The notes under the pieces were generated by a model, which saw only the letters and a program-made list of their open reading frames with translations, did not search any database and had not been told where the DNA came from. Below are positions 1 to 25,886 of a stretch of 64,000 nucleotides of DNA, one piece after another. The position numbers and the translations under genes were made by a program. Numbering within the stretch: position 1 is the stretch's first letter; each line of letters opens with the position of its first letter. This DNA is from Shigella phage vB_SdyM_006. The stretch lies in the sequence record MK295204; one strand, 5' to 3'.

Positions 1-2046
1 TTATAGATCCTTTGGTTTTAAGTTATCATTTATAATTTTAACTTGTTCTGATGTTAATTCCGGTAAGTTAAAAATATAATAATACAATACAGGGTATTTA
101 TCGCGAATATTGTATTCGTTAGATTCAAAAATAGTTTCTGCTTGTAATTCTATTTTTTGTAATTCATCATATAATTCTGGGTCAGAATACATCGTAACAC
201 GTTTTAATTCATGATACTGACTTGGATTAATTTTGGGTTTATAATCTTTAATATTAGCAAGGTCTTTAATCCATGGTAATTTTTTAATTACATCACCATT
301 TAAAAATTTAGTTGAGTAATTAACAGGGATAGAATACGCTGTTAATTTTGCTTTTTTAATCTTTTCAGATACCAAATCTATAGCATTTGTTTCTTCGCAA
401 TAACGATATGCGGCTGGACGTATTACATGGATTTCTTTTATATCTAGATATTCACAAATTTTAACAGCCAAACGTTCTGCAATATATTTTCTATTATCAG
501 GTGAACATATAATGCTATTATCAAATGAATACAACACCGGCCCTTTTATTTCTCTGACTTCAGAAGCTGTCATAAATTTATCACGTTTAGAAAAATATTT
601 GTTCCATTTATCTTCTACTAATGACCATACTTGAACATTAGAAGCTTTAGGACGAGCTTCAGCAGGTTTTACTGATTTATACTTCTGTCTTAGTTCTGAT
701 AATTTATATAGTGTGACATCTTTACCCATAAATTCATTAATTGAATCTATAGCATATGTATCAGTATCTTTTACTACAACACATAATGAGTCAACACGAA
801 AATCAGTTGTCATGCCTCTAATAGTAGAAATTTTATTTTTACCTTTAGCGTCATCAATGATAACTACTAAATTGTCTACAGAAAAATTAAGGACTGAACT
901 TATATTCTTCTTATATTTTGTTGCTGTCTTGTATTGACCAATTCGTACTAATTTAGGAGCATTGCAAATATAATAACCTTGGAGTTCTAAGTTTGGAAAA
1001 TCATTATACTTTTTAACTAAGCCTGCAATTCGACCAAACTTTTCAGAAGAAAACCTTTGAGTAATATATGTGCTTAATGTGTATGGCTTATTATTAACGT
1101 ATCTAAGTAAAGCACGTTCGTCGTCAAAAGAATCAATATCCTTTTTAATTTCAGCAAATAGTTTATCTGTAACTTCTTTTATACGAGTTTTAATATTATT
1201 AGTTGTTTCTTCATCATAAGAAATTTCTTCACGAGAAGGAGCAATATCAAGTTCGCCTAATTTAAAACGTACAAATAACTTTTTATCATAATCTCTTAAG
1301 ACACGTATTCCAGAAAAATCGAAATGTTCACTTTTTAATGGATATCTAATTTTGCCCATAATAGCATAGACTTCAGTTTTATCATAGGCAATACCAGATT
1401 CACTAAAGAATGCTTCTTTATTAGGTAAATATTTAACATCTAATTGTTGACCAATAAAATTAGGCTTGATATCACAGAAAGTAGCAAATACGTAATGTGC
1501 TTCACCATACCATTTAGAAACATCTTTTTCTAAAACAGGAACAGTGACTTCTAATCCAGAAGGACTATCATCTTCAACATCAAATGTTGGAATTAATGAA
1601 GGTTCACCATTGTCTAAGCATGCTGTATATCCACGAGCTCGACCTTCAAAACGAGAAACAATAGAAAATGTTTCTGTATATCCAAATGGAGATTTAGAGC
1701 CAAGACCTAATGCTCCAATAAAATCGTTTGAATCAGATTTTGTTGATTCAAAATATGTTGTGTACATATGTGTAACATCTTCATCTGATAATCCAGGACC
1801 ATAGTCTCGAATAATAAAACGTGGGTCAATAGCAGAAGGAAGTGTAATGTCAAATGATTTAGTGTGCCCAGCTAAAAGATGAGCATCTGCAGCGTTACAA
1901 CTCAATTCACGAATAATTGCTCTAATCTGATTTGAATATAAGTTTTGTGATAAAACTTTAAATGCTTTAGCAGACGTGGCAATTGTAAATTTAGTGGAGC
2001 CTTTTTGGCTCCCTAACATGGTTTCATTAGTATTATGTAACTTCAT
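1..2046 (-). CDS. rIIA: rIIA protein (membrane-associated, GHKL-ATPase-like N-terminus)
   Basis: 681 aa; N-terminus MKLHNTNETMLGSQKGSTKFTIATSAKAFKVLSQNLYSNQIRAIIREL and DFIGALGLGSKSPF match remembered T4 rIIA; first gene of T4-type map; ATG at 2044-2046. Confidence 0.85.
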   Translation of the reverse strand: MKLHNTNETMLGSQKGSTKFTIATSAKAFKVLSQNLYSNQIRAIIRELSCNAADAHLLAGHTKSFDITLPSAIDPRFIIRDYGPGLSDEDVTHMYTTYFESTKSDSNDFIGALGLGSKSPFGYTETFSIVSRFEGRARGYTACLDNGEPSLIPTFDVEDDSPSGLEVTVPVLEKDVSKWYGEAHYVFATFCDIKPNFIGQQLDVKYLPNKEAFFSESGIAYDKTEVYAIMGKIRYPLKSEHFDFSGIRVLRDYDKKLFVRFKLGELDIAPSREEISYDEETTNNIKTRIKEVTDKLFAEIKKDIDSFDDERALLRYVNNKPYTLSTYITQRFSSEKFGRIAGLVKKYNDFPNLELQGYYICNAPKLVRIGQYKTATKYKKNISSVLNFSVDNLVVIIDDAKGKNKISTIRGMTTDFRVDSLCVVVKDTDTYAIDSINEFMGKDVTLYKLSELRQKYKSVKPAEARPKASNVQVWSLVEDKWNKYFSKRDKFMTASEVREIKGPVLYSFDNSIICSPDNRKYIAERLAVKICEYLDIKEIHVIRPAAYRYCEETNAIDLVSEKIKKAKLTAYSIPVNYSTKFLNGDVIKKLPWIKDLANIKDYKPKINPSQYHELKRVTMYSDPELYDELQKIELQAETIFESNEYNIRDKYPVLYYYIFNLPELTSEQVKIINDNLKPKDL

Positions 2047-2258
2047 TATTCACCTTTAGTATAAACTTTTTTAGTATAAACTTTATTTAATTCCCAGATA
2101 CATTTTTCGATACTATGTCCTTTAATATAATATTCTATGTCATTAATAGAAACTTCTAAAATATAGTATATTAAATCAGGATAAAAGCCAACAGAATAAA
2201 CCGGAGTTAATTCACCTTTATAAACTTTCCCTTCAATATCAATTCCAATATCAGCCAT
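2046..2258 (-). CDS. hypothetical protein (rIIA.1 position)
   Basis: 70 aa ORF, ATG start, 1-nt overlap with rIIA start; identity by position only. Confidence 0.4.
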   Translation of the reverse strand: MADIGIDIEGKVYKGELTPVYSVGFYPDLIYYILEVSINDIEYYIKGHSIEKCIWELNKVYTKKVYTKGE

Positions 2259-2267
2259 AATTCTACC

Positions 2268-2498
2268 TTAATCAAAAAAGTCTTGACGTTTTTCTAGTAG
2301 TTTACGAGCACCAAATAACGCATCTTCGATAGTAGTACCAAATTCTACCACGCATTCTTTGTTATCATTATAGACTTTAACTTCATATCCAATTAATTCG
2401 ACATAAAACGTCATCATTTCATAAATGGGAAGTACGGAGACTTCCCGTACTTTTCCTTTAAACCAAAAACCAACTTCACTTGTCATGATTTCATCCAT
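2268..2498 (-). CDS. hypothetical protein
   Basis: 76 aa ORF, ATG start, overlaps stop of topoisomerase gene (translational coupling). Confidence 0.35.
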   Translation of the reverse strand: MDEIMTSEVGFWFKGKVREVSVLPIYEMMTFYVELIGYEVKVYNDNKECVVEFGTTIEDALFGARKLLEKRQDFFD

Positions 2499-4306
2499 TC
2501 TTTTCTAAGCTCTGCATTATCACCAAATAACATTTCAAAAAGTTCTTTATAATTATCAGGCAGCTCAACAACGTCGTATACCGGTTTTTTAAGAACACGT
2601 TCGTATTCTTCAGAAGTTAATGACGCAAGCCCTTTAATATATCTAGGAGAACTCCAACCTTTTAATTTCGGTTTTTCTTTTTCGTATTCTTCAGCATTAT
2701 AATACCATTTTTGTTCTTTACCTTTTTGGATAATAATTAAAGGTGTTTTACAAAAACGGATTCTTTGTTCTTTATACAGTTCTGGCCATTTAGCAAAAAA
2801 TGCTAATAATGAAGGATAAATTGAACCTTGGCCATCGACATCGGCATCCGTCATAATAGCTATATTATCATACATTAAATTTTCAGGTTTTTCGCCAAGA
2901 ACAAGTCCTGTAATAGCCATGATATCAAATGCTTCTTTACTAGCCATAATATCAACATCTTTCATACCCCAAGTATTTAAAAATTTACCACGTAATGGAT
3001 AACCACCTTGTGTATCTTGGTCTCGAGATGTTAATAATTCATTTAAAGCAGAATCACCTTCTGTTAAAAACAGAGTAGTACCAGTTCCAGGTTTTCCATA
3101 TAAGTTAGCTTTAATATGTTTTGCAACTTTAGCCTTAGCAGCTTTTTTTGCTGCTTTTGTAGCCGCAGCCTGTTCAGCAGCAAGTTTACGTGCTAATACT
3201 GCTTCAATAATTGGCATTAAAACCGCTTCATTTCTCATTAACTGAGAAGCTAATTTTTTAACGTCAATATCGACATGGTTTTTAACTTCACCCCATGTAT
3301 TTGATAATCGTTCTTTTGTTTGACTATCAAACTTAAGATTACTCATATCACGAACAAATAAAAGTAGTGTCAAACATTCTTTAATTCGAGCTTTTGTGAT
3401 ATCAATTTTAAACTTACGCTTAATCATAGGCATAAGTTCAGTACATAATTCGTCCATCAACCAATCAACATGAGAGCCACCTTTTTTAGTATGGATATTA
3501 TTAACATAAGAGATATGTCTGAATCCATCAGGTGAGCGTCCAATGGCGACAGAGCAATTAGTTTGGTCTAAGACAATAGATTCTTCATCAAACTGTTTAG
3601 AATACTTCTTGAAGTTCCCTACGACTTTCTTACCATTAAATTTAAATTCAATATCAGGAAATACAACAGCTAGTGTCATTAAACGGTCAAGTGTCACATT
3701 TTTATATACATCAGATAAACTTGTATCATCAAAATGTTCAAAATCTGGAACAAATTTTACTTCTGTTCCGTGATAAGATGCTTTTTTAGTTTTCCATGAA
3801 ATATTTTCTGCACCGTCAGTACAATTAACTGTAATTTCTGTTTCGCCATTACAAGTCACACCAACAAATAATGTAGAGAAAATATTTGTTAACGCAGAAC
3901 CAACACCATTCATCCCACCAGTTTTACGTTCCGAGTCATCGCCAAAATTACCGCCAGCTCGAGGACGTGTCCATGCAGCAACAGGACCTGGGATTTCATC
4001 ACCTTCAGGAGTTAAGACTAAAGCCTGTGGTAATCCGCGACCATTATCTTTAACAGTTACAGTATCATTTTCGATAGAAACTTCAATTTTATTAGCGAAT
4101 TTAAAATTAGTTCTAATAGCTTCATCTACTGAGTTATCAATAATTTCGTCTATAATCTTAACAATACCAGGAACATATTTTATAGTGGTATACTCACCAA
4201 ACAAAAATTGTTCATTATTTTCTGATGATGAAGAACCAATATACATCCCAGAACGTTTAATGATATGTTCACGGTCACTTAAAATTTTAATTTCGTGTTT
4301 ATTCAT
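2483..4306 (-). CDS. 39: DNA topoisomerase II large subunit (gp39 with gp60-equivalent C-terminus fused)
   Basis: 607 aa; MNKHEIKILSDREHIIKRSGMYIGSS, GyrB-like ATPase motifs (DNGRGLP, GGMNGVGS), close to remembered T4 gp39; continuous ORF covering the region split into 39 and 60 in T4. Confidence 0.85.
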   Translation of the reverse strand: MNKHEIKILSDREHIIKRSGMYIGSSSSENNEQFLFGEYTTIKYVPGIVKIIDEIIDNSVDEAIRTNFKFANKIEVSIENDTVTVKDNGRGLPQALVLTPEGDEIPGPVAAWTRPRAGGNFGDDSERKTGGMNGVGSALTNIFSTLFVGVTCNGETEITVNCTDGAENISWKTKKASYHGTEVKFVPDFEHFDDTSLSDVYKNVTLDRLMTLAVVFPDIEFKFNGKKVVGNFKKYSKQFDEESIVLDQTNCSVAIGRSPDGFRHISYVNNIHTKKGGSHVDWLMDELCTELMPMIKRKFKIDITKARIKECLTLLLFVRDMSNLKFDSQTKERLSNTWGEVKNHVDIDVKKLASQLMRNEAVLMPIIEAVLARKLAAEQAAATKAAKKAAKAKVAKHIKANLYGKPGTGTTLFLTEGDSALNELLTSRDQDTQGGYPLRGKFLNTWGMKDVDIMASKEAFDIMAITGLVLGEKPENLMYDNIAIMTDADVDGQGSIYPSLLAFFAKWPELYKEQRIRFCKTPLIIIQKGKEQKWYYNAEEYEKEKPKLKGWSSPRYIKGLASLTSEEYERVLKKPVYDVVELPDNYKELFEMLFGDNAELRKEWMKS

Positions 4307-4320
4307 TATGTCTCCTTGAT

Positions 4321-4659
4321 TTAAGACGGCATCTTATCAAAAATAAAAACATAAGCATTATGTTCTTCTACCGAAAATGGTTTAACAGAAACTTCTAAAT
4401 ATTTTAAGTCTTCTTCATACATATAAGCAGAAAAATCTTTTATATCTCTTAAAGAATGTTCTTGATGTTTAAGAAGATCTCCTATTAATTTAGGATTCTG
4501 GTCCCAAACTTTAACTGGTTTTCTATATACATGAGTGATTCTAAAAGGTCTGTTATCTAACATCCATTGGTATTTGTTGAAAAGCTTCCACTGTTCAGTA
4601 TATTCTGGATTTAATCTATATAAACAATTTTGACTTAGTTCTTTTGCTGGCACCCACAT
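4321..4659 (-). CDS. hypothetical protein (goF position)
   Basis: 112 aa ORF, ATG start; position downstream of gene 39 as goF in T4; no motif recognised. Confidence 0.3.
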   Translation of the reverse strand: MWVPAKELSQNCLYRLNPEYTEQWKLFNKYQWMLDNRPFRITHVYRKPVKVWDQNPKLIGDLLKHQEHSLRDIKDFSAYMYEEDLKYLEVSVKPFSVEEHNAYVFIFDKMPS

Positions 4660-4673
4660 ATTGTCTCCATACT

Positions 4674-4694
4674 AAAAAGGACCCGAAGGTCCTT
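4674..4694 (-). terminator. intrinsic terminator hairpin (GGACC-UUCG-GGUCC plus U-run on minus strand)
   Basis: aaaaaggacccgaaggtcctt; 7-bp stem, tetraloop, A-run on plus = U-run after hairpin on minus; sits between two minus-strand genes. Confidence 0.6.
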
Positions 4695-4707
4695 AATTCA
4701 GATTAGA

Positions 4708-5100
4708 TTAGAAAAATGCTTCTAATAATTTACAAAGAGATTCTGCTTGTTCTTTTGTTTTAACTTCTAGATTCAATTTAATACTTTTACTAGAGACTTC
4801 AGTCACATCATCTTTTGGTTGTATTTCTAAATGAGAAGAATTATCTAAAGAAACACAGTATTTGTCTAAATCAAAATCAGATAGTACATAGGTGGGATAT
4901 TCTTTTGAATCAAAAATATAACCGCCACCCCAATAAAATTTTTCACATGAAATGACTTGGTCATAATCACGAAGAAATGGTTTTTCTATAAGGTCATTAT
5001 CAATTACATACTTTTTAAAATCTTTAGAAGCTTGATGATTTTTATTACTGGTAAAATCTAAAAATGCTGACATGGATTTAAATCTAAAAGTTTTAAACAT
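4708..5100 (-). CDS. hypothetical protein, member of 3-copy tandem paralog family
   Basis: 130 aa; shares FKFKS-like N-terminal motif and LLxxIEK-like C-terminus with the next two ORFs. Confidence 0.45.
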   Translation of the reverse strand: MFKTFRFKSMSAFLDFTSNKNHQASKDFKKYVIDNDLIEKPFLRDYDQVISCEKFYWGGGYIFDSKEYPTYVLSDFDLDKYCVSLDNSSHLEIQPKDDVTEVSSKSIKLNLEVKTKEQAESLCKLLEAFF

Positions 5101-5102
5101 TT

Positions 5103-5531
5103 TTAAGCCTTTTCAATATAATCTAAAAGTGTATTAATAAGTTCACGTGCTTCTTTAACTGATGTCACAGAAGATGATATTAATAATTCCTTTTTAGGTG
5201 TATCAGATTCTTTAAAATCACTTAGTTCTAAATATTCTAGAATACTCGAATCTAACTGAGACCCGATCATAGGAAAAACATAGCTTTCTTCGCCGAAATC
5301 GTCAAAAACTTGCCCATTAGAAAATACAAGTTTTAAACCTGGTAAAGGATCATCAACATTAGCTTGCTCTAATTCATAATCTTCAAAATGGAAAAGTTCA
5401 AATGGGGTGTCAAATAAATTATGATAATTAATAAACCGGATAAATCTTTGTCTAACTGGGATATCATGTCGCTCATAATGTCTAATCAACATATCAGAAG
5501 ATTTAATTTTAAATTTACCTAAACTAGTCAT
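5103..5531 (-). CDS. hypothetical protein, member of 3-copy tandem paralog family
   Basis: 142 aa; MTSLGKFKIKSSD... ...LLDYIEKA. Confidence 0.45.
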   Translation of the reverse strand: MTSLGKFKIKSSDMLIRHYERHDIPVRQRFIRFINYHNLFDTPFELFHFEDYELEQANVDDPLPGLKLVFSNGQVFDDFGEESYVFPMIGSQLDSSILEYLELSDFKESDTPKKELLISSSVTSVKEARELINTLLDYIEKA

Positions 5532-7180: not shown

Positions 7181-7861
7181 TTATTTTTTAATTGATACAG
7201 GATCGATATCTTGTTCGTCTGGGACTTCTTCTAATCCAAGAGCATATCGTTCTGCAGTTTTAAGCATAATAATGTCTTTAGCACAGTCATGAATAGAGTC
7301 ATGCAAAACAAACCCGTTTAAAACACCTTTACGAATAGGACACATTGTCATATCACGGTCTAATAAAAGCTTTCTAATAGAAGTTCTTGTGTCATTTTGG
7401 TTCCAGAAAACAATGAATTCTTTTTTAAATGTATCAATATCTTCGATCTTAACACCAGAATCAAGTTCACGTTGTGTTATCATGTGTTTTAAAATTGGAA
7501 AGTCAAAAGACATACCACGAGAATATCCTTGAGACTTCCAGAAATCAATTCCTTGAGAGTCTAAATATTCTTTTAATATATCTAAACCTTCATTAATAGA
7601 CACATCCTGTGGGGACCTGGCTAAATTCTTTTTAGCTTCTTGTGATTGTCCTTTCCACCATTCAACAGTAGATTTATAGAAAACTCTTTTTCCTTTTTGT
7701 GAAGCCAAATCAAATTTAATTCGGAGACCACGTTTAACTAAATCTTCAAACGATTCAACTATAGTTGGGTCTGAATTAAATGTTATAATAGAAAGGTCGA
7801 TAACAGCCGAATCTGGCTGATTACCAAAAGTTTCTAAGTCAAATACAAAATCAATTGCCAT
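7181..7861 (-). CDS. dexA: exonuclease A (DnaQ-like 3'-5' exonuclease)
   Basis: Track ORF 7181..7951 begins at an upstream alternative start; in-frame ATG at 7861 gives MAIDFVFDLETFGNQ (DnaQ exo motif I), 1-nt TAATG overlap with dda stop; T4 order dda-dexA. Confidence 0.7.
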   Translation of the reverse strand: MAIDFVFDLETFGNQPDSAVIDLSIITFNSDPTIVESFEDLVKRGLRIKFDLASQKGKRVFYKSTVEWWKGQSQEAKKNLARSPQDVSINEGLDILKEYLDSQGIDFWKSQGYSRGMSFDFPILKHMITQRELDSGVKIEDIDTFKKEFIVFWNQNDTRTSIRKLLLDRDMTMCPIRKGVLNGFVLHDSIHDCAKDIIMLKTAERYALGLEEVPDEQDIDPVSIKK

Positions 7862-9183
7862 TATATATACCACACATTTTTCTGAGCACGAGTTGTTCCA
7901 ACATACAATAACTGTGAAGCAACATCGACTTCTGCATATTTTATAATACAAGGAGTATAAAGAAAACTATTTTTTACAGTAACACCTTGTGCCTTATGAA
8001 TTGTACTACATGGTATTGGTTTAACTTTGGAAAATGCATCTTTGATTTCCCAGAAATCATCCCAATAAGCACGCCCATTTCCTGATTTATATTGTTGGGC
8101 AACTTTACCTAAAAACATCCAAAGTTGAGTCTGGTTTTCTTCACCATAAACAACGTTAATGTAATTCGTTGTACCTTCGTCAATAGATTGAACTTTTAAA
8201 AGAAAATATGGCAAACTGATTTTAAAATCAACACCACGACATTCTAGTTTACGGTTCATTTCTTTTATTTCTAGAACTTGTACAACTTCGCCGTTATTAA
8301 AGATGATTTCTTTCATCTTTTTACCTTCAAACTTAATAGTTTGCATAAACGGCTCTTGCATTACTAAAGATTCACCCACAATAAATGGTGCTTCAGACTT
8401 ATAAAAATTCTTACGAATGATCTGGTTTAATTTGTCAACAGATTTATTTGTGTATGCAAAAAATCTATTATCAAAAAAATCTTCTTGACATTTAATTTGC
8501 TTAAAATAATCCAGCATCATATCACGTAAAGACGATGGGTGGAAAACGCCTTCTCCATTCTGGATGTTTTCTCGAATCCACCCACCATTTCTAATTTCTG
8601 TAGCAACTTCAATAATAGGTTGATTAGAACGTTTTACTTCTGTTAGATGCATTTGTTTAAAACGCTGATCTGTAAAAAATCTTGATACACCTGGATCGTC
8701 TTGTGGCTTCAACTGGGCTTTATCACCAATAGCAATAACAAGAGTCCAAGGCATAATATTATTCATTAATAACTCAAAAAGCTTAGTGTCATAAAATGAA
8801 GCTTCTTCACAAATAAGAACACGAATTTTATCTAATTCTGGAGCCTTGCGTTGTTCAAAAATACGGTGCTCTTCGTATGTGACTGGGTTTATTTTTAAGA
8901 TACTATGAATTGTAGAAACTTCTCGGCCTGTAAAATCTGCAAGAACTTTTTTAGATGCGTGTGTTGGTGCAGCTAAAACAACCCCAGGAATACCTTCTTG
9001 TTCAATAAAGTCCATAATAAACTTCATTAACAAACTTTTACCTGTACCTGCAGGGCCATTAATAGTTAAATGCGATACTTTAGCTTTCCAATTTGATTCT
9101 TGTTCATAAGCTTGTGTTATTAAATCTGTCGCACATTCATACGCTTCCCTTTGACCTTTTGTCAAGTCGTCAAATTCAATCAT
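7861..9183 (-). CDS. dda: Dda DNA helicase (SF1)
   Basis: 440 aa; HLTINGPAGTGKS Walker A, AAPTHASKKVL, STIHSILKINPVTYEE match remembered T4 Dda. Confidence 0.85.
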   Translation of the reverse strand: MIEFDDLTKGQREAYECATDLITQAYEQESNWKAKVSHLTINGPAGTGKSLLMKFIMDFIEQEGIPGVVLAAPTHASKKVLADFTGREVSTIHSILKINPVTYEEHRIFEQRKAPELDKIRVLICEEASFYDTKLFELLMNNIMPWTLVIAIGDKAQLKPQDDPGVSRFFTDQRFKQMHLTEVKRSNQPIIEVATEIRNGGWIRENIQNGEGVFHPSSLRDMMLDYFKQIKCQEDFFDNRFFAYTNKSVDKLNQIIRKNFYKSEAPFIVGESLVMQEPFMQTIKFEGKKMKEIIFNNGEVVQVLEIKEMNRKLECRGVDFKISLPYFLLKVQSIDEGTTNYINVVYGEENQTQLWMFLGKVAQQYKSGNGRAYWDDFWEIKDAFSKVKPIPCSTIHKAQGVTVKNSFLYTPCIIKYAEVDVASQLLYVGTTRAQKNVWYI

Positions 9184-11651: not shown

Positions 11652-12201
11652 ATTCTACAAGAGAATTTTTAGCTGTAAACGGTGCAGCACTGTTAAAACT
11701 ACCAATCCAATAGCAATTTTTATCGTAGGCCCGCCATTTTTGTAATAGATTATCGTATTCTGGTTTATCCCAGAATCCATTTACAATACCATCGACATTA
11801 GTAGCAATATAATTAATTGATTCCGGGACTTCAAATTCTTTGCCTAAGTAGTTCAGAACTTTTGTTTTGTCTTTAGGTCTTTCAACAAAAGAGCCCCAAT
11901 CAATAGTTTTTAATTGCAAATTACGTAAATGTTCTTTTGCTTCTTGTTCGGTGTCAAATACTTGAAGTGTTTCATTATTAAGAACACCATACACAAACAC
12001 TGGGTTGTTTACTAAATACAGATCTTCTTCTTTGTATTCATTATAAGACCCAAGGTCCCATTTTACACCAATAGGAAGAGTATTTCCAACAACAATGTCA
12101 GTTATAGTTCCTTCACAATTTGGATTAGCCTCTGTATTACCAGCAGCAATCCAATTAGAATTAGAACTAATTTTTACACGATCGCCTTTTTTAAATTTCA
12201 T
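11644..12201 (-). CDS. hypothetical protein, tandem paralog family (copy B)
   Basis: 185 aa; MKFKKGDRVKISSNSNW...NPNCEGTITD; FDTEQEAKEHL shared with copy A (FDTEQEAKDFL). Confidence 0.45.
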   Translation of the reverse strand: MKFKKGDRVKISSNSNWIAAGNTEANPNCEGTITDIVVGNTLPIGVKWDLGSYNEYKEEDLYLVNNPVFVYGVLNNETLQVFDTEQEAKEHLRNLQLKTIDWGSFVERPKDKTKVLNYLGKEFEVPESINYIATNVDGIVNGFWDKPEYDNLLQKWRAYDKNCYWIGSFNSAAPFTAKNSLVEYG

Positions 12202-12776
12202 TATAATTCCACCAAAGAATTTTTAGGATTTTCGATAACTTCTGCTCTAATAAGCAGTTCTACTTCTATGTCGCCACACTCGTCAGACCAAATACCGTCA
12301 TCTTCGTCATAAGTAGGTTTATGCATAAACGAATAAATATCGCCATCTTCATCAGTAGCAATATAATAATGGTCATCTTTAACTAATAATTCAACACCAA
12401 GATAATTAACAGATTTATATCCAGGAATATGTTGTTTATACGAAACTTTAAGTTTTGGTTCTTTATATGTAAGTTTTTCTAATTCCAAATTAGCCGTATG
12501 TAGTGAAGCAAATGTGCCATTTTTAGGGTCACCAAAAAATCCAATAGTGTAAAGAATTTTAGGCTCTATATTTTTAGCAGAAACTAAATCTTCTCCACGA
12601 TAAGTATTCGTGTAGCCCGAGTCCCATTGAACCTTGATAAAATGAGTGTCTTCATCGATTTGAGGGTACAATTCAATAACTATTCCTTTTACATCAGATG
12701 GGTTGTGGTCTGACTTGCCAAAATATTGTGAGCCAGGAGCAAGTAATACTTTATCACCGATATTAAATTCGCTCAT
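12201..12776 (-). CDS. hypothetical protein, tandem paralog family (copy C)
   Basis: 191 aa; MSEFNIGDKVLLAPGSQYF...NPSDVKGIVIE; HYYIATDEDGDIYSF. Confidence 0.45.
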   Translation of the reverse strand: MSEFNIGDKVLLAPGSQYFGKSDHNPSDVKGIVIELYPQIDEDTHFIKVQWDSGYTNTYRGEDLVSAKNIEPKILYTIGFFGDPKNGTFASLHTANLELEKLTYKEPKLKVSYKQHIPGYKSVNYLGVELLVKDDHYYIATDEDGDIYSFMHKPTYDEDDGIWSDECGDIEVELLIRAEVIENPKNSLVEL

Positions 12777-12786
12777 TATGAGTCCT

Positions 12787-13239
12787 TTATTTTAAGATAT
12801 TTGAAGCTAATTGGATATCATAAAAGGATAACCCAATTAAGCCATTAACTTGAATGAAGTTGCCTTCTAGGCCATATACATAATGCTGAATAGAATCATC
12901 TAATACAACATATTTTTCGACTTTATGGTCTAAAACATACCTTAAGATACTTACACCGCGTGATCGTCCGCCACCAGTATAATCTATTGTATCATAGATG
13001 TCTATTCCTAGAGCTTCAGAGATTTCTTTTTCTCGCTCTTTGCATTTGGGGTCTCCAGACGGTCTGGCCCAAGAAGAAATTAAAACAACTTTAGCGTCGA
13101 CACACGATAATAGGTCATGGAAACGTTGCAATTCATAGTGTCCAATATAACCTAAACGTGTTCTAACTGCTAAATCATCGTCAAAACATGATCGTTGGCT
13201 ATTTAACACACCGTCAATATCAAGAAATATCACATTCAT
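12787..13239 (-). CDS. HAD-superfamily hydrolase-like protein
   Basis: Track ORF 12787..13254; start moved to ATG at 13239 (TAATG coupling); MNVIFLDIDGVLN = HAD motif I (DxDG). Confidence 0.45.
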   Translation of the reverse strand: MNVIFLDIDGVLNSQRSCFDDDLAVRTRLGYIGHYELQRFHDLLSCVDAKVVLISSWARPSGDPKCKEREKEISEALGIDIYDTIDYTGGGRSRGVSILRYVLDHKVEKYVVLDDSIQHYVYGLEGNFIQVNGLIGLSFYDIQLASNILK

Positions 13240-13424
13240 TAGTTTTCTTCCCATGCATCACATTCTGTTGTGTCATCACGAACTACGTCTTCGTCAATTA
13301 ACACACCACAACCGTATTCTTCAACATCTTTTAAAGCCTCTTCAATTGTTTCAGCTTCAACTTCATAAATCCGTCGTCCGCGAACATATCCTGAAAAGTT
13401 TACTCCAACTTTAAATTTGGCCAT
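13239..13424 (-). CDS. hypothetical acidic small protein
   Basis: Track start is TTG; first ATG at 13424 with GGAG Shine-Dalgarno; 61 aa. Confidence 0.3.
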   Translation of the reverse strand: MAKFKVGVNFSGYVRGRRIYEVEAETIEEALKDVEEYGCGVLIDEDVVRDDTTECDAWEEN

Positions 13425-16599: not shown

Positions 16600-16961
16600 T
16601 AGTGTCCCTTAAAGATGTCAAAAATACTAAAACCTTTTTTAACTTCAGTATTTTCAATTTGTGTTTTAATACATTTTTCTATGTGAGGTTCTAAAATATC
16701 TTTAGGTAAATCAGAAAGCGTAGAATAATCATATTCTACTTTACCGTTTTTAATATCTATAGAATGGATATACACTAAGTGTGGAGTATTATTGATTAAT
16801 ACAATTATTTCTTGGATAACATTTTTCATAGATTCTTTAACAACTTCTAATGACTTTTCATATATCTCTTGGTCATTTCCGATGTCATCAAGAATCTTAA
16901 ATTCTTGGTCAAAGTTTTGCATAGATATAGTTTCCGCAGTCCCAAATTCGTCGAAGACCAT
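16599..16961 (-). CDS. hypothetical protein (gene 40 position)
   Basis: 120 aa, ATG start; lies between gene 41 and the uvsX side as gene 40 does in T4; sequence not recognised. Confidence 0.3.
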   Translation of the reverse strand: MVFDEFGTAETISMQNFDQEFKILDDIGNDQEIYEKSLEVVKESMKNVIQEIIVLINNTPHLVYIHSIDIKNGKVEYDYSTLSDLPKDILEPHIEKCIKTQIENTEVKKGFSIFDIFKGH

Positions 16962-18288
16962 TATTATAACAGTTTTCTACTTCAGTTAATTTAGGATTAA
17001 AATAGTTAAGTTTATCTTTTAATTTATGTTTCATAAAAGACGATCGATGATATAACTTATCCTTTACAACATAATAATAACATGGTTCTGTTGTTCCAAT
17101 ATAAGTAAGGGCTAGTTTATTATACACATTACCTTGAGACCATCGTCTATTGGCATAAGATATAAACGATAAACCATTAAGAAGTCTAGAAGCTCCGCCA
17201 ACAACAGTATGTCCTATTTTAGAACATAATCTAAGAAGTTCTAGGTCATAATTATTATTATATCTAGTTTTACCTAAAACAGCCACTTGGACTAGTTCAT
17301 TATTATAAAATAGGCCTTTGTATATCGAACCAGGGCATTTTCCTTGTAAATGATTCTGTTCAACGAACTCATTAGCAAGCTGCTTATCTATATCCTTTAA
17401 TTCACACTTACGAGCATAAATTCTTTTAGATAACCCAAGTTTGTTTTTTATGACAGATTTCCATATTTCTTTTTTAATAGGGTCAATCCATTCGCTTTCA
17501 AAAATATGAAGAAGATGTATTCCTTTAGATTCACATAATTCGGTTTTATCTAAATGATACTTAGATAATCGTTTATCATCTTCTTTTGTTCCTGAAGAAT
17601 GCCAATAAATGCCATTAAATTCTATTGCCAGGGAATGACCAGGAACATAAATATCTAATTCATATGGTAATATAACTTGTTTAGTGTTGTGTTCACAGGA
17701 CACACCTAGAGAACACACGTAGTCATATACTTCTTGTTCTAATTGAGATTTTCCTGATAATGATTTAATAGGATACCCATGTTTTTCCATGAACTTAAAA
17801 GCAGAGGAATGAGAATTTAAAGATAGTCCAAAATGCTCAGCAACATAAGTCCAATGTTTATTTGATAAAGATTCCATTATCTCTTTATTTTTTATGTCAT
17901 CCAGGTTTTTATATTCCAATTGTAGTGGATGTTCACCTAGATTATATTTCTTTCCTCCCCATTTTCGTTGTTTACCGTATTTAGAAACACACGTTGCTTT
18001 TGTTTTGTCTTGGACTTTTTTAGATTTAATAGAACATCTATTAGAACAGACTTCAAGAAGTTTATTTCTATATACAATAACTGGTTTACCACAATGGCAT
18101 TTAGGTATATCATTAGAACAATTTATTCCATTTTCAAGAAACACAACAACCTGGGGTAAAGACACCCCAGGAAAGTTTTTAGTTATTTCTTGAAATAAGT
18201 CTTTACGGTTCTTTTCTAGCCAGGCTAAATTTCTTTTAGAAACTAATCGCCCATTAGAATAGCATAAAGATTTTATTTCATTTATCAT
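16909..18288 (-). CDS. putative freestanding nuclease (homing-endonuclease-like), Cys-rich N-terminus plus Vsr/DUF559-like PD-(D/E)xK motif
   Basis: 459 aa inserted between uvsX and gene 40 (absent in T4 there); CHCGKP...CSNRC; ELDIYVPGHSLAIEFNGIYWHS resembles Vsr-type endonuclease core; ATGA coupling to uvsX. Confidence 0.4.
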   Translation of the reverse strand: MINEIKSLCYSNGRLVSKRNLAWLEKNRKDLFQEITKNFPGVSLPQVVVFLENGINCSNDIPKCHCGKPVIVYRNKLLEVCSNRCSIKSKKVQDKTKATCVSKYGKQRKWGGKKYNLGEHPLQLEYKNLDDIKNKEIMESLSNKHWTYVAEHFGLSLNSHSSAFKFMEKHGYPIKSLSGKSQLEQEVYDYVCSLGVSCEHNTKQVILPYELDIYVPGHSLAIEFNGIYWHSSGTKEDDKRLSKYHLDKTELCESKGIHLLHIFESEWIDPIKKEIWKSVIKNKLGLSKRIYARKCELKDIDKQLANEFVEQNHLQGKCPGSIYKGLFYNNELVQVAVLGKTRYNNNYDLELLRLCSKIGHTVVGGASRLLNGLSFISYANRRWSQGNVYNKLALTYIGTTEPCYYYVVKDKLYHRSSFMKHKLKDKLNYFNPKLTEVENCYNNGLRRIWDCGNYIYAKL

Positions 18289-19436
18289 AGTTCGTCCATA
18301 GCATTAAGTTCTTCAATAGTAGAACGAATACCAGATGAACCAAAAACGTGTTCTTCCACTTTTAGATTCATTAAGTCTTCAACTTCTTGTTCTACTGATT
18401 CGTCATTAATCATCTGTCCTAATTTATAACGTGTTTCAATAGCTTCACGGAACGGGCCATGTTTTAATAATGGTCCCCAGAATGCTACGCATCTTGTATC
18501 TTTAGCACGCCAATTCTTTTCTTCAGGAACGATTTCACCCGTTTCTGTGTCTAAAAATGCTTGAGTATACCAGCCATTTTTAGGTTTAACAACAAATCCT
18601 AATTCCAGACCCATATCAAGCAAACCAGAATAAGGGTCAATACCGCCATCAAATGTGACATCAATAAAGAATTTAGATTTTTCTTTAACTGTACGTGATT
18701 TTTCGACATTTAATACAAATTGATAACCTTGAAGATCTGTACCATCTTTAATTTGACGTCGACCAATAATATATACATTATCAGCAGAATACATTACACC
18801 TGTTCCGCCTGTCATAACAGTTTTACTAAACATTTCCATTGTTTCAATTGTATGGTTAATCCCGACACATGGAATATCTTTTAATGTAAAATATGGAGTG
18901 GCCATACGGAACAATGATTTTAACTGCTTGGCCCGTGTCATATCTGCAACAGATTTTTCATTTAATGCATCTTCAACTTCTTTCTTAGAAGCCAGGTTAC
19001 CAATAGAGTCGATAAATACAATAACCTTTTCACCTCGTTCAATAGTTTCTAATTGATTAATCATATCAATTTTAAGTTCTTCAACGTTTTTAACTGGTGT
19101 ATGAACAACACGGTCTGGGTCAACACCCATAGAACGAAGATAAGCACTTGTGATACCAAATTCTGAGTCATAAAATAAGCAAATTGCATCTTTATATGCT
19201 TTCATATAAGCAGCAACTAATGTTAAACCCATATTTGATTTAAAGTGTTTACTTGGACCAGCTAAAATAGTAATACCAGATTGAAGGCCACCTGTGATAT
19301 CACCGGACAATGCAATATTTAATGTTGGAATTTTAGTTCTTACAACAGACTTCTCATTAAAAAACTTTGATTCACTAAGTACAGAAGTCATTTTATTTGT
19401 TGAAGCTTTCATTAAACGTGTTTTTAAGTCTGACAT
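18285..19436 (-). CDS. uvsX: UvsX recombinase (RecA/Rad51-like)
   Basis: 383 aa; MSDLKTRLMKASTNK...ILAGPSKHFKSN...near-collinear with remembered T4 UvsX. Confidence 0.9.
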   Translation of the reverse strand: MSDLKTRLMKASTNKMTSVLSESKFFNEKSVVRTKIPTLNIALSGDITGGLQSGITILAGPSKHFKSNMGLTLVAAYMKAYKDAICLFYDSEFGITSAYLRSMGVDPDRVVHTPVKNVEELKIDMINQLETIERGEKVIVFIDSIGNLASKKEVEDALNEKSVADMTRAKQLKSLFRMATPYFTLKDIPCVGINHTIETMEMFSKTVMTGGTGVMYSADNVYIIGRRQIKDGTDLQGYQFVLNVEKSRTVKEKSKFFIDVTFDGGIDPYSGLLDMGLELGFVVKPKNGWYTQAFLDTETGEIVPEEKNWRAKDTRCVAFWGPLLKHGPFREAIETRYKLGQMINDESVEQEVEDLMNLKVEEHVFGSSGIRSTIEELNAMDEL

Positions 19437-20415: not shown

Positions 20416-21108
20416 TTATAGAAATGAATTTACATATTCTATATCACGTTCAAAAATATGCGCAGAAACCATTGAATGTGTGTAATGGCCAATTTCTACG
20501 TTACATTCTGAAGCAATATATTCCATTAATTTACCTTGTAAGTAAATATCAAGTTGTAATACTATAGCACAATTTTGAGAACGCATATGAGTATGGGCAT
20601 ATAATTTATTATCACGAATATAATATGTGACAGAATCAGTACATGGATATTCCAATGTTTCGTCGTCAAGTGATAATAATGCTTGGTCTTGTTCTTGAAG
20701 AATTTGAAAAACAACACGTCTCGAACCAGGTTTTTCTTTAAGTTCTTTAAGTAAAACTGGAAGTTGAGCTACAATACGAGGACCATAGAATGTATTGAAG
20801 TTTTCTGGAAGGATATCGCTTTTAGGCTTATCAATAAATTTAGCAACATTAGGATATTCTTTAAATGCTTCAATAGCGTTGGTCCCACCAGAAATCATAA
20901 ATTGCCAGAAATCTTCTGCGTACTTATAATCAATACGGTTTATTTTTTCGTCACTAAATTTATATGTAGAAGGGTCCATTACACGAAATGTTAATGACCC
21001 TATTTCTCTACATGGCCCAATACGAGAATCTACTTTAAATTCATATAGATCAATAACGGTTTCATTAACAGCTTTAAAAGCTTCTTCAAAAGTATTTCTG
21101 ATAATCAT
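20416..21108 (-). CDS. 42: dCMP hydroxymethylase-like (thymidylate synthase superfamily) gp42
   Basis: 230 aa; EYPCTDSVTYYIRD (active-site Cys region) and RSQNCAIVLQLD resemble gp42/TS motifs; position as T4 gene 42. Confidence 0.7.
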   Translation of the reverse strand: MIIRNTFEEAFKAVNETVIDLYEFKVDSRIGPCREIGSLTFRVMDPSTYKFSDEKINRIDYKYAEDFWQFMISGGTNAIEAFKEYPNVAKFIDKPKSDILPENFNTFYGPRIVAQLPVLLKELKEKPGSRRVVFQILQEQDQALLSLDDETLEYPCTDSVTYYIRDNKLYAHTHMRSQNCAIVLQLDIYLQGKLMEYIASECNVEIGHYTHSMVSAHIFERDIEYVNSFL

Positions 21109-21479
21109 AACATTTCCTGTAATTTTTTAGAGTAATTCATTAAAAACACTAATAATGGTTGTGCCTCTGGTGGTGTTTGTTGTAATTTTTTAGATTCAAC
21201 GACACCATTATACACTGGAAATCCTTTAGCCTTTTTGGTTTGACCTATTTTAATGGCTAATTTATTACGTGCATTAAACAATTCGATCATTTGTTTATCT
21301 ATTTCTTGAATAGCTTTACGATCTTCGTCTAATGTGTCTTTAACATGCCCTTTTAATTGTTCTTTTAATTGTTCTTTGATTAATCTTTGATTACATTCTT
21401 TAATAAATCCTTTAGGAAACGGTGGTACTTCTATCCCAGGATAAATAGGCCAAACCGGTGCGCCATCTATATGATGCAT
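21105..21479 (-). CDS. chorismate mutase-like (AroQ class) protein
   Basis: 124 aa; residues ~45-124 DRKAIQEIDKQMIELFNARNKLAIKIGQTKK...YSKKLQE align to AroQ catalytic positions (R, R, K, E, S, Q); ATGA coupling with gene 42. Confidence 0.45.
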   Translation of the reverse strand: MHHIDGAPVWPIYPGIEVPPFPKGFIKECNQRLIKEQLKEQLKGHVKDTLDEDRKAIQEIDKQMIELFNARNKLAIKIGQTKKAKGFPVYNGVVESKKLQQTPPEAQPLLVFLMNYSKKLQEML

Positions 21480-21664
21480 TATTTCACCTCTATTGAAATG
21501 TTTATACGTTCTACAGGTCTAGGAAGTTCTAAATAAATATTATTTCCTTTAGACCTTACTTTATATCCTTGGGCTTTAAATGTATCTATAATGATTTGTT
21601 TACAGCTACTTGAATAAATCACACCATTTTTATTAGGAGTATCGGTCTCAATTAATTTTACCAT
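21479..21664 (-). CDS. hypothetical protein
   Basis: 61 aa, ATG start, 1-nt overlaps on both sides. Confidence 0.3.
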   Translation of the reverse strand: MVKLIETDTPNKNGVIYSSSCKQIIIDTFKAQGYKVRSKGNNIYLELPRPVERINISIEVK

Positions 21665-21873
21665 TATTTACCTACTATTTTGCCAGTTTCTGGTCCTTCA
21701 TACAAAGTGGACTTTACTATAAAGTCACTTAACCCTTTATTATATCTTTTAAACTTTGACACTTCAGAATCACATATTAATTGAGCTAGATTCTCTTGAT
21801 ACATCATTAAGCAGGGAATAACCCTGCTTAAAAAGGTTTTCTTTGTATTAATTTTCTGGATATCTTGATTCAT
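21664..21873 (-). CDS. hypothetical protein
   Basis: Track start is GTG at 21882; first ATG at 21873; overlaps 3' end of next ORF. Confidence 0.25.
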   Translation of the reverse strand: MNQDIQKINTKKTFLSRVIPCLMMYQENLAQLICDSEVSKFKRYNKGLSDFIVKSTLYEGPETGKIVGK

Positions 21874-23014
21874 CGTCAGCACCGTCTAAAACTTTAATTT
21901 CAATTTCGTCTGGACGACGATCATTTTTAGATAATTGACGTTTATAATATCGTTCACAATATTTACAAGTCGTTCCGCAGATTTCGTTAGCACAATCAAA
22001 ATCAGGGTGTTTAAACCATCGTTTCTCTAAAAATCCATCTAACAATGATGTTTCTAAATACACCTGGTGTTCATGATCTAATTCTGATTTACCATTATAA
22101 ATTGTTTCTAATGGTTTCCAAAGTTCAAGTAAATTACCTGTGAATTGTTCTGATGCATAGGCTTCTAGAACTTTAACAATATATTCTGTTGTGCCTGTAC
22201 GTCCAGAAACTTTAAATTGAGAAATACCAATAGAACGATATAACTCTAAATCTTGTGGACGAACAAATCGAGTTCTAAGCCAGTTAAACGGGTCTGTATC
22301 ACGGGCTTTAATACAATGTTGCATTGGATATCCACCTAAAGATTGAGCATCTTCAGCTGTTATATCTGTAGAATGGAAAATATAACAAGAATCTCTGTAA
22401 GAACAGTGTGTTGTATATCCTTTACCAGCATTAGAACAAAATTCATTAACTAAGACTTCAAAAATAATATTATTTTTATTACAGAACTCAGCTGCACGTT
22501 TTAAGAACGAAACACTTCGGTTTTTATGAATACCACAACAAACTTTTTTAATATTATATTGGTCATGAAGATATTTTATTTGTGTGACAGCATCAACGTG
22601 TAGAATAGTCGAAACTTCAAATTGAATATGTTTATTTACTTCACGGATGATTTCCATAATAATTGGATTGGCAACAGTCACACGATAAACGCCAATACTC
22701 CATAAATATTGAACATAATCTTGGATGGCTTTCTTTTTCCAATCCTGTAGTTCACGTTTAGAGCCAGGGTTAATCGTGTTCAAAGTATAGTTGAAACATA
22801 TTCCTAAATCATTACAACGTTGTACGTATATTTCTAGTTGTTCGTCTTTGACATCCGGTAATCTAAAATCTGGTCGTGCTGCAGCAAAAGCCATTGCACG
22901 TGTACTTCCATAAACTTCATTAATAACACTATTAGGATATTTTTCGTTTAATTCAACGATTTTATCAAGTAAAGCCAAATCAAAATTTGTTCCTACTTTA
23001 AATGTATTTTTCAT
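21848..23014 (-). CDS. peptidase U32-family-like protein (RlhA/TrhP/UbiU-type, candidate Fe-S hydroxylase)
   Basis: Track start TTG 23032 lies in terminator hairpin; ATG at 23014 has AAGGA Shine-Dalgarno; GISQFKVSGRTGTTEY resembles U32 signature G[VI]xx[FL]K[IV]EGR; EFCSNAGKGYTTHCS Cys motif; C-terminal CxxxxCxxxCxxC. Confidence 0.45.
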   Translation of the reverse strand: MKNTFKVGTNFDLALLDKIVELNEKYPNSVINEVYGSTRAMAFAAARPDFRLPDVKDEQLEIYVQRCNDLGICFNYTLNTINPGSKRELQDWKKKAIQDYVQYLWSIGVYRVTVANPIIMEIIREVNKHIQFEVSTILHVDAVTQIKYLHDQYNIKKVCCGIHKNRSVSFLKRAAEFCNKNNIIFEVLVNEFCSNAGKGYTTHCSYRDSCYIFHSTDITAEDAQSLGGYPMQHCIKARDTDPFNWLRTRFVRPQDLELYRSIGISQFKVSGRTGTTEYIVKVLEAYASEQFTGNLLELWKPLETIYNGKSELDHEHQVYLETSLLDGFLEKRWFKHPDFDCANEICGTTCKYCERYYKRQLSKNDRRPDEIEIKVLDGADDESRYPEN

Positions 23015-23030
23015 TTTAGTCCTTATTACC

Positions 23031-23049
23031 AAAAAGGCCTTTCGGCCTT
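23031..23049 (-). terminator. intrinsic terminator hairpin (AAGGCC-GAAA-GGCCUU plus U-run)
   Basis: aaaaaggcctttcggcctt; near-identical copy at 47483-47502. Confidence 0.55.
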
Positions 23050-23052
23050 ATA

Positions 23053-23259
23053 TTATTTTTTCTTTAACTGTGTTGCTGCGTCTTCTAATTTAAGAGACAT
23101 ATCTTTAAAATTAACATCTTTGCCTTGAATACCAGAAACAATGCCAGAAACAAGAATCATAAATGCTAATAATACCGCAAACAATAATACAAAAACCGAA
23201 CACGCTACACCAATAAGAATACCTAATACAAGATTTTTAAAATAGTTTAATACTTTCAT
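23053..23259 (-). CDS. small membrane protein (imm-like by position)
   Basis: 68 aa, hydrophobic LVLGILIGVACSVFVLLFAVLLAFMILVSGIV; lies between genes 42 and 43 as imm in T4. Confidence 0.35.
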   Translation of the reverse strand: MKVLNYFKNLVLGILIGVACSVFVLLFAVLLAFMILVSGIVSGIQGKDVNFKDMSLKLEDAATQLKKK

Positions 23260-23819: not shown

Positions 23820-24193
23820 TTTATCTCCGGAGTATATGGTTTGGCCGATTCTAAAGTAGACATTCTAACATGGTTTTTAAATGTTTGTGGGTCCATTGCT
23901 TTGTCATCGATAATCCAGTCATAAGATGGTTTATGGGTCAAAAGCTCATGATATTTCAATCCAATTTTATTAAGATTAATAACGAGTCCAGGAACTATTT
24001 CTGATGCTATTTTACCAGGTCCAACAGAAGTCATACCACGAGAAGTATAAAGTGTGATATGATGGCCCTGGTCGTACAGGGCGTTAATCATAGCTACCAT
24101 TTCTTCATCAGGTACAAAGTTCTCATAATCTCTATTATTATTCCATAATGTGATTGTATTATCAATGTCAAAAAACAGTTTTAAAGGTTTCAT
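23816..24193 (-). CDS. HAD-superfamily phosphatase
   Basis: 125 aa; LFFDIDNTIT = HAD motif I DxDxT; ATGA coupling with flanking genes. Confidence 0.55.
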   Translation of the reverse strand: MKPLKLFFDIDNTITLWNNNRDYENFVPDEEMVAMINALYDQGHHITLYTSRGMTSVGPGKIASEIVPGLVINLNKIGLKYHELLTHKPSYDWIIDDKAMDPQTFKNHVRMSTLESAKPYTPEIK

Positions 24194-25839: not shown

Positions 25840-25886
25840 TTCAAATCCTTATTAATTTAGTGTATAAGAATAGTATCATTAAATTC

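What the first reader, a model, noticed from the sequence alone, without database searches (positions are those of the whole stretch)
2483..4306. Topoisomerase large subunit is one continuous 607-aa ORF (no gene 60 split or bypass element)
In T4 the equivalent protein is split into genes 39 and 60 with a mobile-element-associated insertion and translational bypass in gene 60; here a single ORF covers both parts, the presumed ancestral state.
Basis: partly seen in the sequence, partly recalled or inferred. Interest (0 to 1): 0.25.

Follow-up and report, generated by a model that had tools for sequence, protein, structure and literature searches.

The report
Ordinary unsplit phage topoisomerase II gene
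This is an intact, single-piece gene for the large subunit of a T4-like phage DNA topoisomerase II; the unsplit form is the usual and already well-described one, and it is phage T4's split gene 39/60 that is unusual.

Summary
Window 2483..4306 (minus strand) is one 607-aa ORF. Residues 1-473 match T4 gp39 (66% identity) and residues 473-605 match T4 gp60 (62%, E=8e-57). The protein aligns end to end with the single-chain gp39 of phage T6, whose structure is solved (PDB 8YLU, E=1e-279). All expected domains and catalytic motifs are present. There is no ~70-aa T4 insertion, no HNH endonuclease gene, no in-frame stop and no bypass hairpin.

The interpretation (uninterrupted, ancestral-type state) is supported. 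About 90% of 2239 phage records with a homologue carry the gene in one place. Only 63 carry the signature of the MobA cassette. Cellular type IIA topoisomerases are also continuous across this site.

All of this is already known. T2 and T6 have the unsplit gene, and a 2022 preprint describes uninterrupted "parental" alleles beside MobA-split ones in six phage clades, including a Proteus clade. The exact protein is already in NCBI (AZV01139.1, Shigella phage vB_SdyM_006).

The only local colour is that sister phages of the same genus (Bragavirus: Pm5461, PM2, SJ_PmiM) carry the MobA and bypass cassette. This allele therefore has that site empty, at about window 2829..2906. Interest is low.

The parts
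2483..4306 (-). Complete gene for the topoisomerase II large subunit (gp39-type, 'Topo2L'), 607 codons plus a TGA stop
   Evidence: ORF list. Pfam finds HATPase_c, DNA_gyraseB, Toprim and TOPRIM_C. Collinear with T6 gp39 in PDB 8YLU_C at E=1.2e-279. The exact protein is NCBI AZV01139.1.
4312..4317 (-). Shine-Dalgarno AAGGAG, 5 nt before the ATG. The upstream ORF (4321..4659) stops at 4323..4321, so the gene lies in a polycistronic unit.
   Evidence: Read directly from the sequence.
2888..4306 (-). Part equivalent to T4 gene 39 (aa 1-473)
   Evidence: BLASTP against T4 gp39 1-472: 66% identity with 1 gap.
2492..2890 (-). Part equivalent to T4 gene 60 (aa 473-605)
   Evidence: BLASTP against T4 gp60 27-158: 62% identity, E=8e-57.
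3749..4165 (-). GHKL ATPase domain (aa 48-186), with N-box DEIIDNSVDE 53-62, G1 DNGRG 87-91 and G2 GGMNGVGS 130-137
   Evidence: Pfam PF02518 scores 34.6 bits against a cut-off of 26.4. Motif positions.
3155..3526 (-). Transducer domain (aa 261-384), with the QTK loop SQTKERL at 328-334
   Evidence: Pfam PF00204 scores 59.6 bits against a cut-off of 27. Motif position.
2825..3076 (-). TOPRIM domain (aa 411-494), with TEGDSA 415-420 and MTDADVDG 485-492. It is continuous here, whereas in T4 it is cut in two.
   Evidence: Pfam PF01751 scores 23.2 bits against a cut-off of 23.1. Motif positions. Alignment to T6 gp39.
2489..2746 (-). C-terminal TOPRIM-associated domain (aa 521-606)
   Evidence: Pfam PF16898 scores 26.5 bits, below its cut-off of 29, but homology to T4 gp60 and T6 gp39 is strong.
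2829..2906 (-). Unoccupied insertion site of the MobA and bypass cassette (ORF nt about 1401-1478, codons about 467-493). In Pm5461 a 1102-nt element replaces ORF nt 1402 to about 1472. In T4 the break lies at ORF nt 1419/1420 and about 1478.
   Evidence: blastn of the ORF against the Pm5461 and T4 39..60 loci. Three-way alignment. Boundaries agree with those reported in 10.1101/2022.08.31.505936.

Best explanation
The ORF encodes the complete ATPase/TOPRIM (GyrB-like) subunit of a T-even-type phage type IIA DNA topoisomerase. By homology to T6 and T4 Topo II, two copies of this protein pair with two copies of the gp52 (GyrA-like) subunit in an A2B2 enzyme. The GHKL domains dimerise on ATP and capture a transport DNA segment. 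The transducer QTK lysine couples ATP hydrolysis. The TOPRIM acidic residues (E417; D487 and D489) hold the Mg2+ needed for gp52's tyrosine to cleave the gate segment. The enzyme relaxes DNA during phage replication. The gene is translated conventionally as a single polypeptide. It has never acquired, or no longer carries, the MobA homing-endonuclease cassette that in T4, and in some sister Bragavirus phages, splits the gene inside the TOPRIM domain and adds a roughly 50-nt translational bypass. Shown here: the ORF, its homology, its domains and motifs, the absence of the cassette, and the mapping of the empty site. Inferred: enzyme activity, quaternary structure, and the evolutionary history of the allele.
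For: A single 607-aa ORF with a Shine-Dalgarno sequence. Four Pfam domains in the canonical order. 66% and 62% identity to T4 gp39 and gp60, arranged collinearly. A one-stretch alignment, 2-606 to 2-604, with T6 gp39, which has been solved and shown to be active as a two-subunit enzyme (PMC11461880). All catalytic motifs are present. Synteny is rIIA - two small ORFs - topo - ... - dexA - dda, as in T4. The window is 98% identical in nucleotides to Proteus phage phiP4-3, whose genome encodes a 451-aa gp52 homologue just beyond rIIB, denB and ndd. The cassette hallmarks are absent: no CTE/NTE, no HNH gene, no stop after Gly492, no hairpin. The unsplit form dominates the phage database.
Against: Nothing contradicts it. 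The limits are these. The gp52 partner is not inside the window (a tblastn search found nothing), so its presence in this genome is inferred from the relative. Two Pfam domain scores are marginal: Toprim 23.2 against 23.1, and TOPRIM_C 26.5 against 29, although the pairwise homology is overwhelming. No expression or activity data exist for this phage.
Confidence: 0.95

Rival explanations
1. Same gene and function, but the unsplit state is secondary. An ancestor of this lineage carried the MobA and bypass cassette and lost it cleanly by recombination with an uninterrupted allele during a mixed infection.
For: Phages of the same genus (Pm5461, PM2, SJ_PmiM) carry the cassette, so the element circulates in this gene pool. 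Differences between the window and phiP4-3 fall in patches separated by long identical stretches, which suggests recombination within the gene.
Against: There is no scar. The CTE and NTE extensions, which persist in clades that lost the endonuclease (10.1101/2022.08.31.505936), are absent, and the alignment to T6 gp39 has no gap at the site. The window has its own 71 nt where Pm5461 has the element. The preprint reads such allele pairs as parental versus invaded. Replacement by a clean allele would leave no trace, so this cannot be excluded.
Confidence: 0.08
2. The ORF is intact but the gene is dispensable or decaying, that is, a non-functional relic.
For: The closest relative's record (phiP4-3) has a 1-nt deletion at ORF nt 540 that splits its gene into two annotated CDS. 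From general knowledge of T4, mutants in genes 39, 52 and 60 give only a DNA-delay phenotype.
Against: The window's copy has no frameshift, and every catalytic motif is conserved. Most differences from phiP4-3 fall at positions that are multiples of three in the ORF, i.e. third codon positions, which is compatible with purifying selection, although synonymous and non-synonymous changes were not counted. The phiP4-3 deletion is a single base and may be a sequencing error.
Confidence: 0.02
3. The ORF hides another interruption (an intein, an intron, or a recoding site) elsewhere than the T4 site.
For: The 2022 preprint mentions intein domains (Hint, HintC) and other homing endonuclease families (GIY-YIG, VSR) among the varied gene structures of bypass insertions.
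Against: The length is 607 aa against 605 for T6 gp39. There are only two 1-residue indels across the whole alignment. Pfam finds no Hint or endonuclease domain, and there is no Rfam hit in the window.
Confidence: 0.01

Closest known systems
gp39 of phages T2 and T6 (unsplit topoisomerase II large subunit; PDB 8YLU, 8YO1, 8YOD; PMC11461880)
   Same: A single polypeptide of about 605 aa with the domain order GHKL, transducer, TOPRIM, C-terminal domain. It aligns collinearly (2-606 to 2-604, E=1.2e-279) with the same catalytic motifs and the same genomic neighbourhood next to rIIA.
   Different: The sequence has diverged (about 65% identity; T4 gp39 gives 66%), with two 1-residue indels. The phage belongs to the genus Bragavirus rather than Tequatrovirus.
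T4 gp39 plus gp60 (split large subunit with mobA and a 50-nt translational bypass)
   Same: It is the same enzyme subunit. aa 1-473 correspond to gp39 1-472, and aa 473-605 to gp60 27-158.
   Different: T4 has an insertion of roughly 1.1 kb (the gp39 C-terminal extension of 44 aa, the mobA pseudogene, gene 60.1 and the gp60 N-terminal extension of 26 aa), plus the UAG, hairpin and 50-nt coding gap after Gly46. None of these is present in the window.
Split Topo2L of Bragavirus phages Pm5461, PM2 and SJ_PmiM (the Proteus clade of 10.1101/2022.08.31.505936)
   Same: They belong to the same genus. The flanks are 83-85% identical in nucleotides, and gene order is the same from rIIA to dda.
   Different: They carry a 1102-nt element encoding a 269-aa HNH MobA, the CTE and NTE extensions, and a GGG-UAG-hairpin bypass of 51 nt. 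The window has 71 nt of ordinary coding sequence at that position.
Bacterial GyrB and ParE, and the N-terminal half of eukaryotic Topo II
   Same: The same fold and motif set. Alignments run continuously across the TOPRIM site (for example yeast Topo II 4GFH with query 8-606, and ParE 4JUO with query 46-606).
   Different: Identity is much lower (E values of 1e-35 to 1e-53). [quoted passage not shown]

Membership tests
Type IIA topoisomerase ATPase/TOPRIM subunit (T-even gp39 / GyrB / ParE type) | GHKL ATPase domain with an N-box Asn and the G1 and G2 glycine-rich boxes | tested here: met
   Pfam HATPase_c scores 34.6 bits against a cut-off of 26.4. Motifs DEIIDNSVDE 53-62, DNGRG 87-91 and GGMNGVGS 130-137.
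Type IIA topoisomerase ATPase/TOPRIM subunit (T-even gp39 / GyrB / ParE type) | Transducer (DNA_gyraseB) domain with the QTK-loop lysine | tested here: met
   Pfam PF00204 scores 59.6 bits against a cut-off of 27. SQTKERL at 328-334.
Type IIA topoisomerase ATPase/TOPRIM subunit (T-even gp39 / GyrB / ParE type) | TOPRIM domain with a conserved Glu (EGDSA) and DxD acidic motif | tested here: met
   Pfam PF01751 scores 23.2 bits against a cut-off of 23.1. TEGDSA 415-420 and MTDADVDG 485-492. These align to the same motifs in T6 gp39.
Type IIA topoisomerase ATPase/TOPRIM subunit (T-even gp39 / GyrB / ParE type) | C-terminal TOPRIM-associated domain (the part that is gp60 in T4) | tested here: met
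   Pfam PF16898 falls below its cut-off (26.5 against 29). However, BLASTP to T4 gp60 gives 62% identity at E=8e-57, and the region aligns to T6 gp39.
Type IIA topoisomerase ATPase/TOPRIM subunit (T-even gp39 / GyrB / ParE type) | A partner DNA-cleavage subunit (gp52 / GyrA type) encoded in the same genome | tested here: inconclusive
   There is no gp52 homologue in the 64-kb window. The 98%-identical relative phiP4-3 encodes one (451 aa, record 1073..2428) beyond rIIB, denB and ndd, which lies outside the window's left end.
Type IIA topoisomerase ATPase/TOPRIM subunit (T-even gp39 / GyrB / ParE type) | ATP-dependent DNA strand-passage activity | not testable with these tools
   This needs biochemistry. 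It has been shown for T6 and T4 enzymes in PMC11461880.
MobA-split gene 39/60 with translational bypass (T4 type) | Two separate ORFs with cassette-derived C-terminal and N-terminal extensions (CTE and NTE) | tested here: not met
   There is one ORF. The ~70-aa insertion of the fused T4 chain (residues 474-542) has no counterpart. A CTE tblastn search finds 63 phage records, and phiP4-3, the window's 98%-identical relative, is not among the Proteus records it lists.
MobA-split gene 39/60 with translational bypass (T4 type) | An HNH homing endonuclease gene (mobA) between the two parts | tested here: not met
   There is no room for one, since the ORF is continuous. Pm5461 has a 269-aa HNH ORF at the equivalent place.
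MobA-split gene 39/60 with translational bypass (T4 type) | A take-off Gly codon followed by an in-frame stop, a hairpin, and a roughly 50-nt coding gap before a matching landing codon | tested here: not met
   The window reads GAT GGC CAA GGT at codons 491-494. The motif TAGCCTTCGGGCTA is absent from both strands of the window.

The most novel reading that the evidence does not exclude
This allele is a naive target of the Bragavirus MobA homing cassette. On this reading, the small cluster of three third-codon-position differences between the window and phiP4-3, lying exactly in the region homologous to the MobA nick site (ORF nt 1452, 1458 and 1467, flanked by about 150 and 80 identical bases), reflects ongoing selection for or against cleavability. 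That would make this phage pair a natural system for watching homing-endonuclease target evolution.
Probability: 0.08. Interest if true: 0.3.

Novelty: already known. Interest (0 to 1): 0.07.

Why it matters
It matters little in itself. It is a correctly recognised, ordinary replication gene. Its only use is as a comparison point: an empty-site allele in the same genus as cassette-bearing phages. Such an allele helps define the exact boundaries of the MobA and bypass element, and it could serve as a recipient in homing experiments. This use has already been made of equivalent allele pairs in the literature.

Tried and rejected
- I looked for hidden interruptions (inteins, introns, recoding). 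The Pfam scan, the Rfam scan of the window and of the Pm5461 locus, and the collinear alignment to T6 gp39 found none.
- I looked for the bypass hairpin motif anywhere in the window and for a gp52 homologue in the window. Neither is present.
- I tested whether the differences between the window and phiP4-3 are polarised towards the cassette-bearing Pm5461 allele, which would suggest co-conversion. The split was 16 (window matches Pm5461), 15 (phiP4-3 matches) and 10 (neither), so there is no signal.
- The promoter scan of the region gave no more sites than shuffled sequence (27 found against 28.4 expected), so no promoter is claimed.
- Antisense small ORFs inside the gene (3543..3773, 3886..4053 and 4185..4319 on the plus strand) were dismissed as chance ORFs in AT-rich DNA.
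- One script failed because locus L003 was never written to the script machine. The comparison was redone with DNA alignment and with locus L004.
- The large protein searches and structure prediction were not run. A solved structure of a 65%-identical homologue makes them unnecessary.

Full report
**Observation.** The ORF list gives a single 607-aa ORF at 2483..4306 on the minus strand, with an ATG start. A Shine-Dalgarno sequence, AAGGAG (4317..4312), sits 5 nt before the ATG. The upstream 112-aa ORF ends at 4321, only 14 nt before the topoisomerase start codon. The neighbourhood is that of T4: rIIA (1..2046), two small ORFs, the topoisomerase gene, several small ORFs, dexA, then dda. The window has 28-34% G+C, and nearly all long ORFs are on the minus strand.

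**Identity of the protein.** Pfam finds the four domains of a GyrB-type subunit in canonical order:
- HATPase_c, aa 48-186
- DNA_gyraseB, aa 261-384
- Toprim, aa 411-494
- TOPRIM_C, aa 521-606 (this last one is below its cut-off)

I took T4 gp39 and gp60 from the annotated T4 record, joining the two exons of gene 60 across the annotated 50-nt bypass. BLASTP then aligns window aa 1-473 with gp39 1-472 (66% identity, one gap) and aa 473-605 with gp60 27-158 (62% identity, E=8e-57). The last 44 residues of T4 gp39 and the first 26 of gp60 have no counterpart in the window.

A search of PDB sequences gives T6 gp39 (8YLU chain C) as the best hit, in one stretch (2-606 to 2-604, E=1.2e-279) with two 1-residue indels. 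The artificially fused T4 gp39-gp60 chain (8YO3) matches in two stretches that skip its residues 474-542. The catalytic motifs are all present:
- N-box, 53-62
- DNGRG, 87-91
- GGMNGVGS, 130-137
- SQTKERL, 328-334
- TEGDSA, 415-420
- MTDADVDG, 485-492

**Origin of the window.** The exact 607-aa sequence is in NCBI as AZV01139.1, 'DNA topoisomerase subunit [Shigella phage vB_SdyM_006]'. The first 11.7 kb of the window are 98% identical in nucleotides to Proteus phage phiP4-3 (genus Bragavirus, Straboviridae). Collinearity continues to at least window position 47958, apart from a replaced stretch at 11672..13244.

**The empty cassette site.** The next-closest phages are Pm5461, PM2 and SJ_PmiM, at about 80% nucleotide identity. 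In these records the topoisomerase gene is annotated in two to three pieces, together with a homing endonuclease. Translation of the Pm5461 locus shows the full T4-type arrangement:
- a 514-aa N-terminal ORF ending in a foreign tail
- a 269-aa HNH ORF
- a 46-aa ORF ending ...MTDADVDG followed by a stop
- then TAG CCTTCGGGCTA..., the same hairpin as in T4

blastn of the window ORF against the Pm5461 39..60 locus breaks at ORF nt 1401. It resumes for a 50-nt homologous stretch (ORF nt 1426-1475, 88% identity), and then runs from nt 1473 to the end. This leaves a 1102-nt element in Pm5461. Against T4 the breaks are at nt 1419 and about 1478. In window coordinates the unoccupied site is about 2829..2906.

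These boundaries, the element length, and the existence of a Proteus clade are all described in bioRxiv 10.1101/2022.08.31.505936. That preprint also reports that each of six clades has close relatives lacking the insertion, which it treats as parental.

**How common each state is.**
- tblastn of the window protein against 50,697 phage records finds 2239 records with a match. 2028 of them hold at least 80% of the query in one place.
- Most rows of an evenly spread sample are single continuous pieces, from Tequatrovirus through RB16-type, Vibrio, Campylobacter and jumbo phages.
- The cassette-derived C-terminal extension of Pm5461 finds only 63 records: T4 and its close kin, plus Salmonella, Acinetobacter, Aeromonas and Proteus phages. 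This is a lower bound, because the query is short. A 'place' can also join pieces, so some split genes may be counted among the 2028.

Even so, the unsplit gene is clearly the rule. Cellular type IIA enzymes also align continuously through the site. PMC11461880 states that T2 and T6 Topo II have two subunits and that T4 is the sole three-subunit case among type IIA topoisomerases. It also reports that the T4 insertion hangs outside the TOPRIM domain and has little influence on the enzyme's relaxation activity. PMC2988022 lists mobA as a free-standing HNH endonuclease whose target is gene 39.

**Mechanism.** By homology (inference), the protein dimerises through its GHKL domains and forms an A2B2 enzyme with gp52. 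It uses ATP to pass one duplex through a transient break in another, with the TOPRIM acidic residues holding the metal ions. The gp52 partner is not in the window. It is encoded in phiP4-3 just beyond rIIB, denB and ndd, which lies off the window's left end. Translation of this gene needs no recoding.

**History.** The absence of any scar fits a never-invaded allele: there is no CTE or NTE, no gap against T6 gp39, and the window has its own 71 nt where Pm5461 has the element. Clean replacement of a once-invaded allele by recombination cannot be excluded. The patchy pattern of differences from phiP4-3 shows that recombination does occur within the gene. Those differences are not polarised towards Pm5461: the split is 16, 15 and 10.

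**Verdict.** The feature is an ordinary, already annotated and already explained gene, so novelty is 'already known' and interest is low.

Noticed in passing
phiP4-3 record NC_055737.1 161896..163718 (aligned to window 2483..4306; the deletion is opposite window position about 3767): The closest relative's topoisomerase gene has a single-base deletion at ORF nt 540 (CACGGAACAG becomes CACGG-ACAG). It is therefore annotated as two CDS. This is either a sequencing error or a real inactivating frameshift. The window copy is intact.
   Followed up: partly
L002 (Pm5461) 2485..5339, minus strand: Sister Bragavirus phages carry the MobA and bypass cassette (1102 nt). The take-off codon is GGG and the landing codon is GGA. 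The gap from TAG through the landing codon is 51 nt, against 50 in T4, so the landing codon is in the same frame as the take-off codon. Simple readthrough of the UAG would then also give an in-frame product with 17 extra residues. The Proteus clade is mentioned in the 2022 preprint, but I did not see the frame point discussed in the sections I read.
   Followed up: partly
window 2839..2855 (ORF nt 1452, 1458 and 1467): Three third-codon-position differences between the window and phiP4-3 cluster in the stretch homologous to the cassette's HomR and MobA nick region. They are flanked by about 150 and 80 identical bases. At two of the three positions the window matches the Pm5461 HomR. This may be chance.
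   Followed up: partly
window 11672..13244: This is the only stretch in the first 48 kb that is not collinear with phiP4-3. It is 1573 nt here against 1829 nt there, with only an 80%-identical patch at 12806..13236. It encodes small ORFs, including a HAD_SAK_2 domain protein (12787..13254). It looks like a local gene replacement.
   Followed up: partly
window 16909..18288, minus strand: A 459-aa ORF lies between uvsX (18285..19436) and the gp40 and gp41 homologues. It is annotated 'homing endonuclease' in phiP4-3, but Pfam gives only sub-threshold hits to the Mom family (24.2 bits) and to REase_MTES_1575 (22.1 bits). Its real nature is unclear.
   Followed up: partly
window about 20416..26519, minus strand: A cluster lies between uvsX and the DNA polymerase gene. 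It contains a thymidylate-synthase-like gene, a U32 peptidase, a thymidylate kinase, a phosphoheptose isomerase, a 549-aa protein with NTP-transferase and kinase domains, and an arabinose-5-phosphate isomerase. This looks like a sugar-nucleotide or DNA-hypermodification module.
   Followed up: no
window 4677..4694, minus strand: A terminator-like hairpin, AAGGACCTTCGGGTCCTT followed by TTTAG, lies upstream of the 112-aa ORF that precedes the topoisomerase gene. A rho-independent terminator is annotated at the corresponding place in Pm5461.
   Followed up: partly
whole window: The exact protein belongs to a record named Shigella phage vB_SdyM_006, yet the genome is 98% identical to a Proteus penneri phage of the genus Bragavirus. 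The host naming and the taxonomy look inconsistent. No tRNA genes and no Rfam families were found in the 64 kb.
   Followed up: partly
window 7181..7951, minus strand: The mechanical ORF for dexA starts at a TTG and overlaps dda by 91 nt. The phiP4-3 annotation (681 nt) and the sequence suggest that the real start is the internal ATG at MAIDFVF...
   Followed up: no
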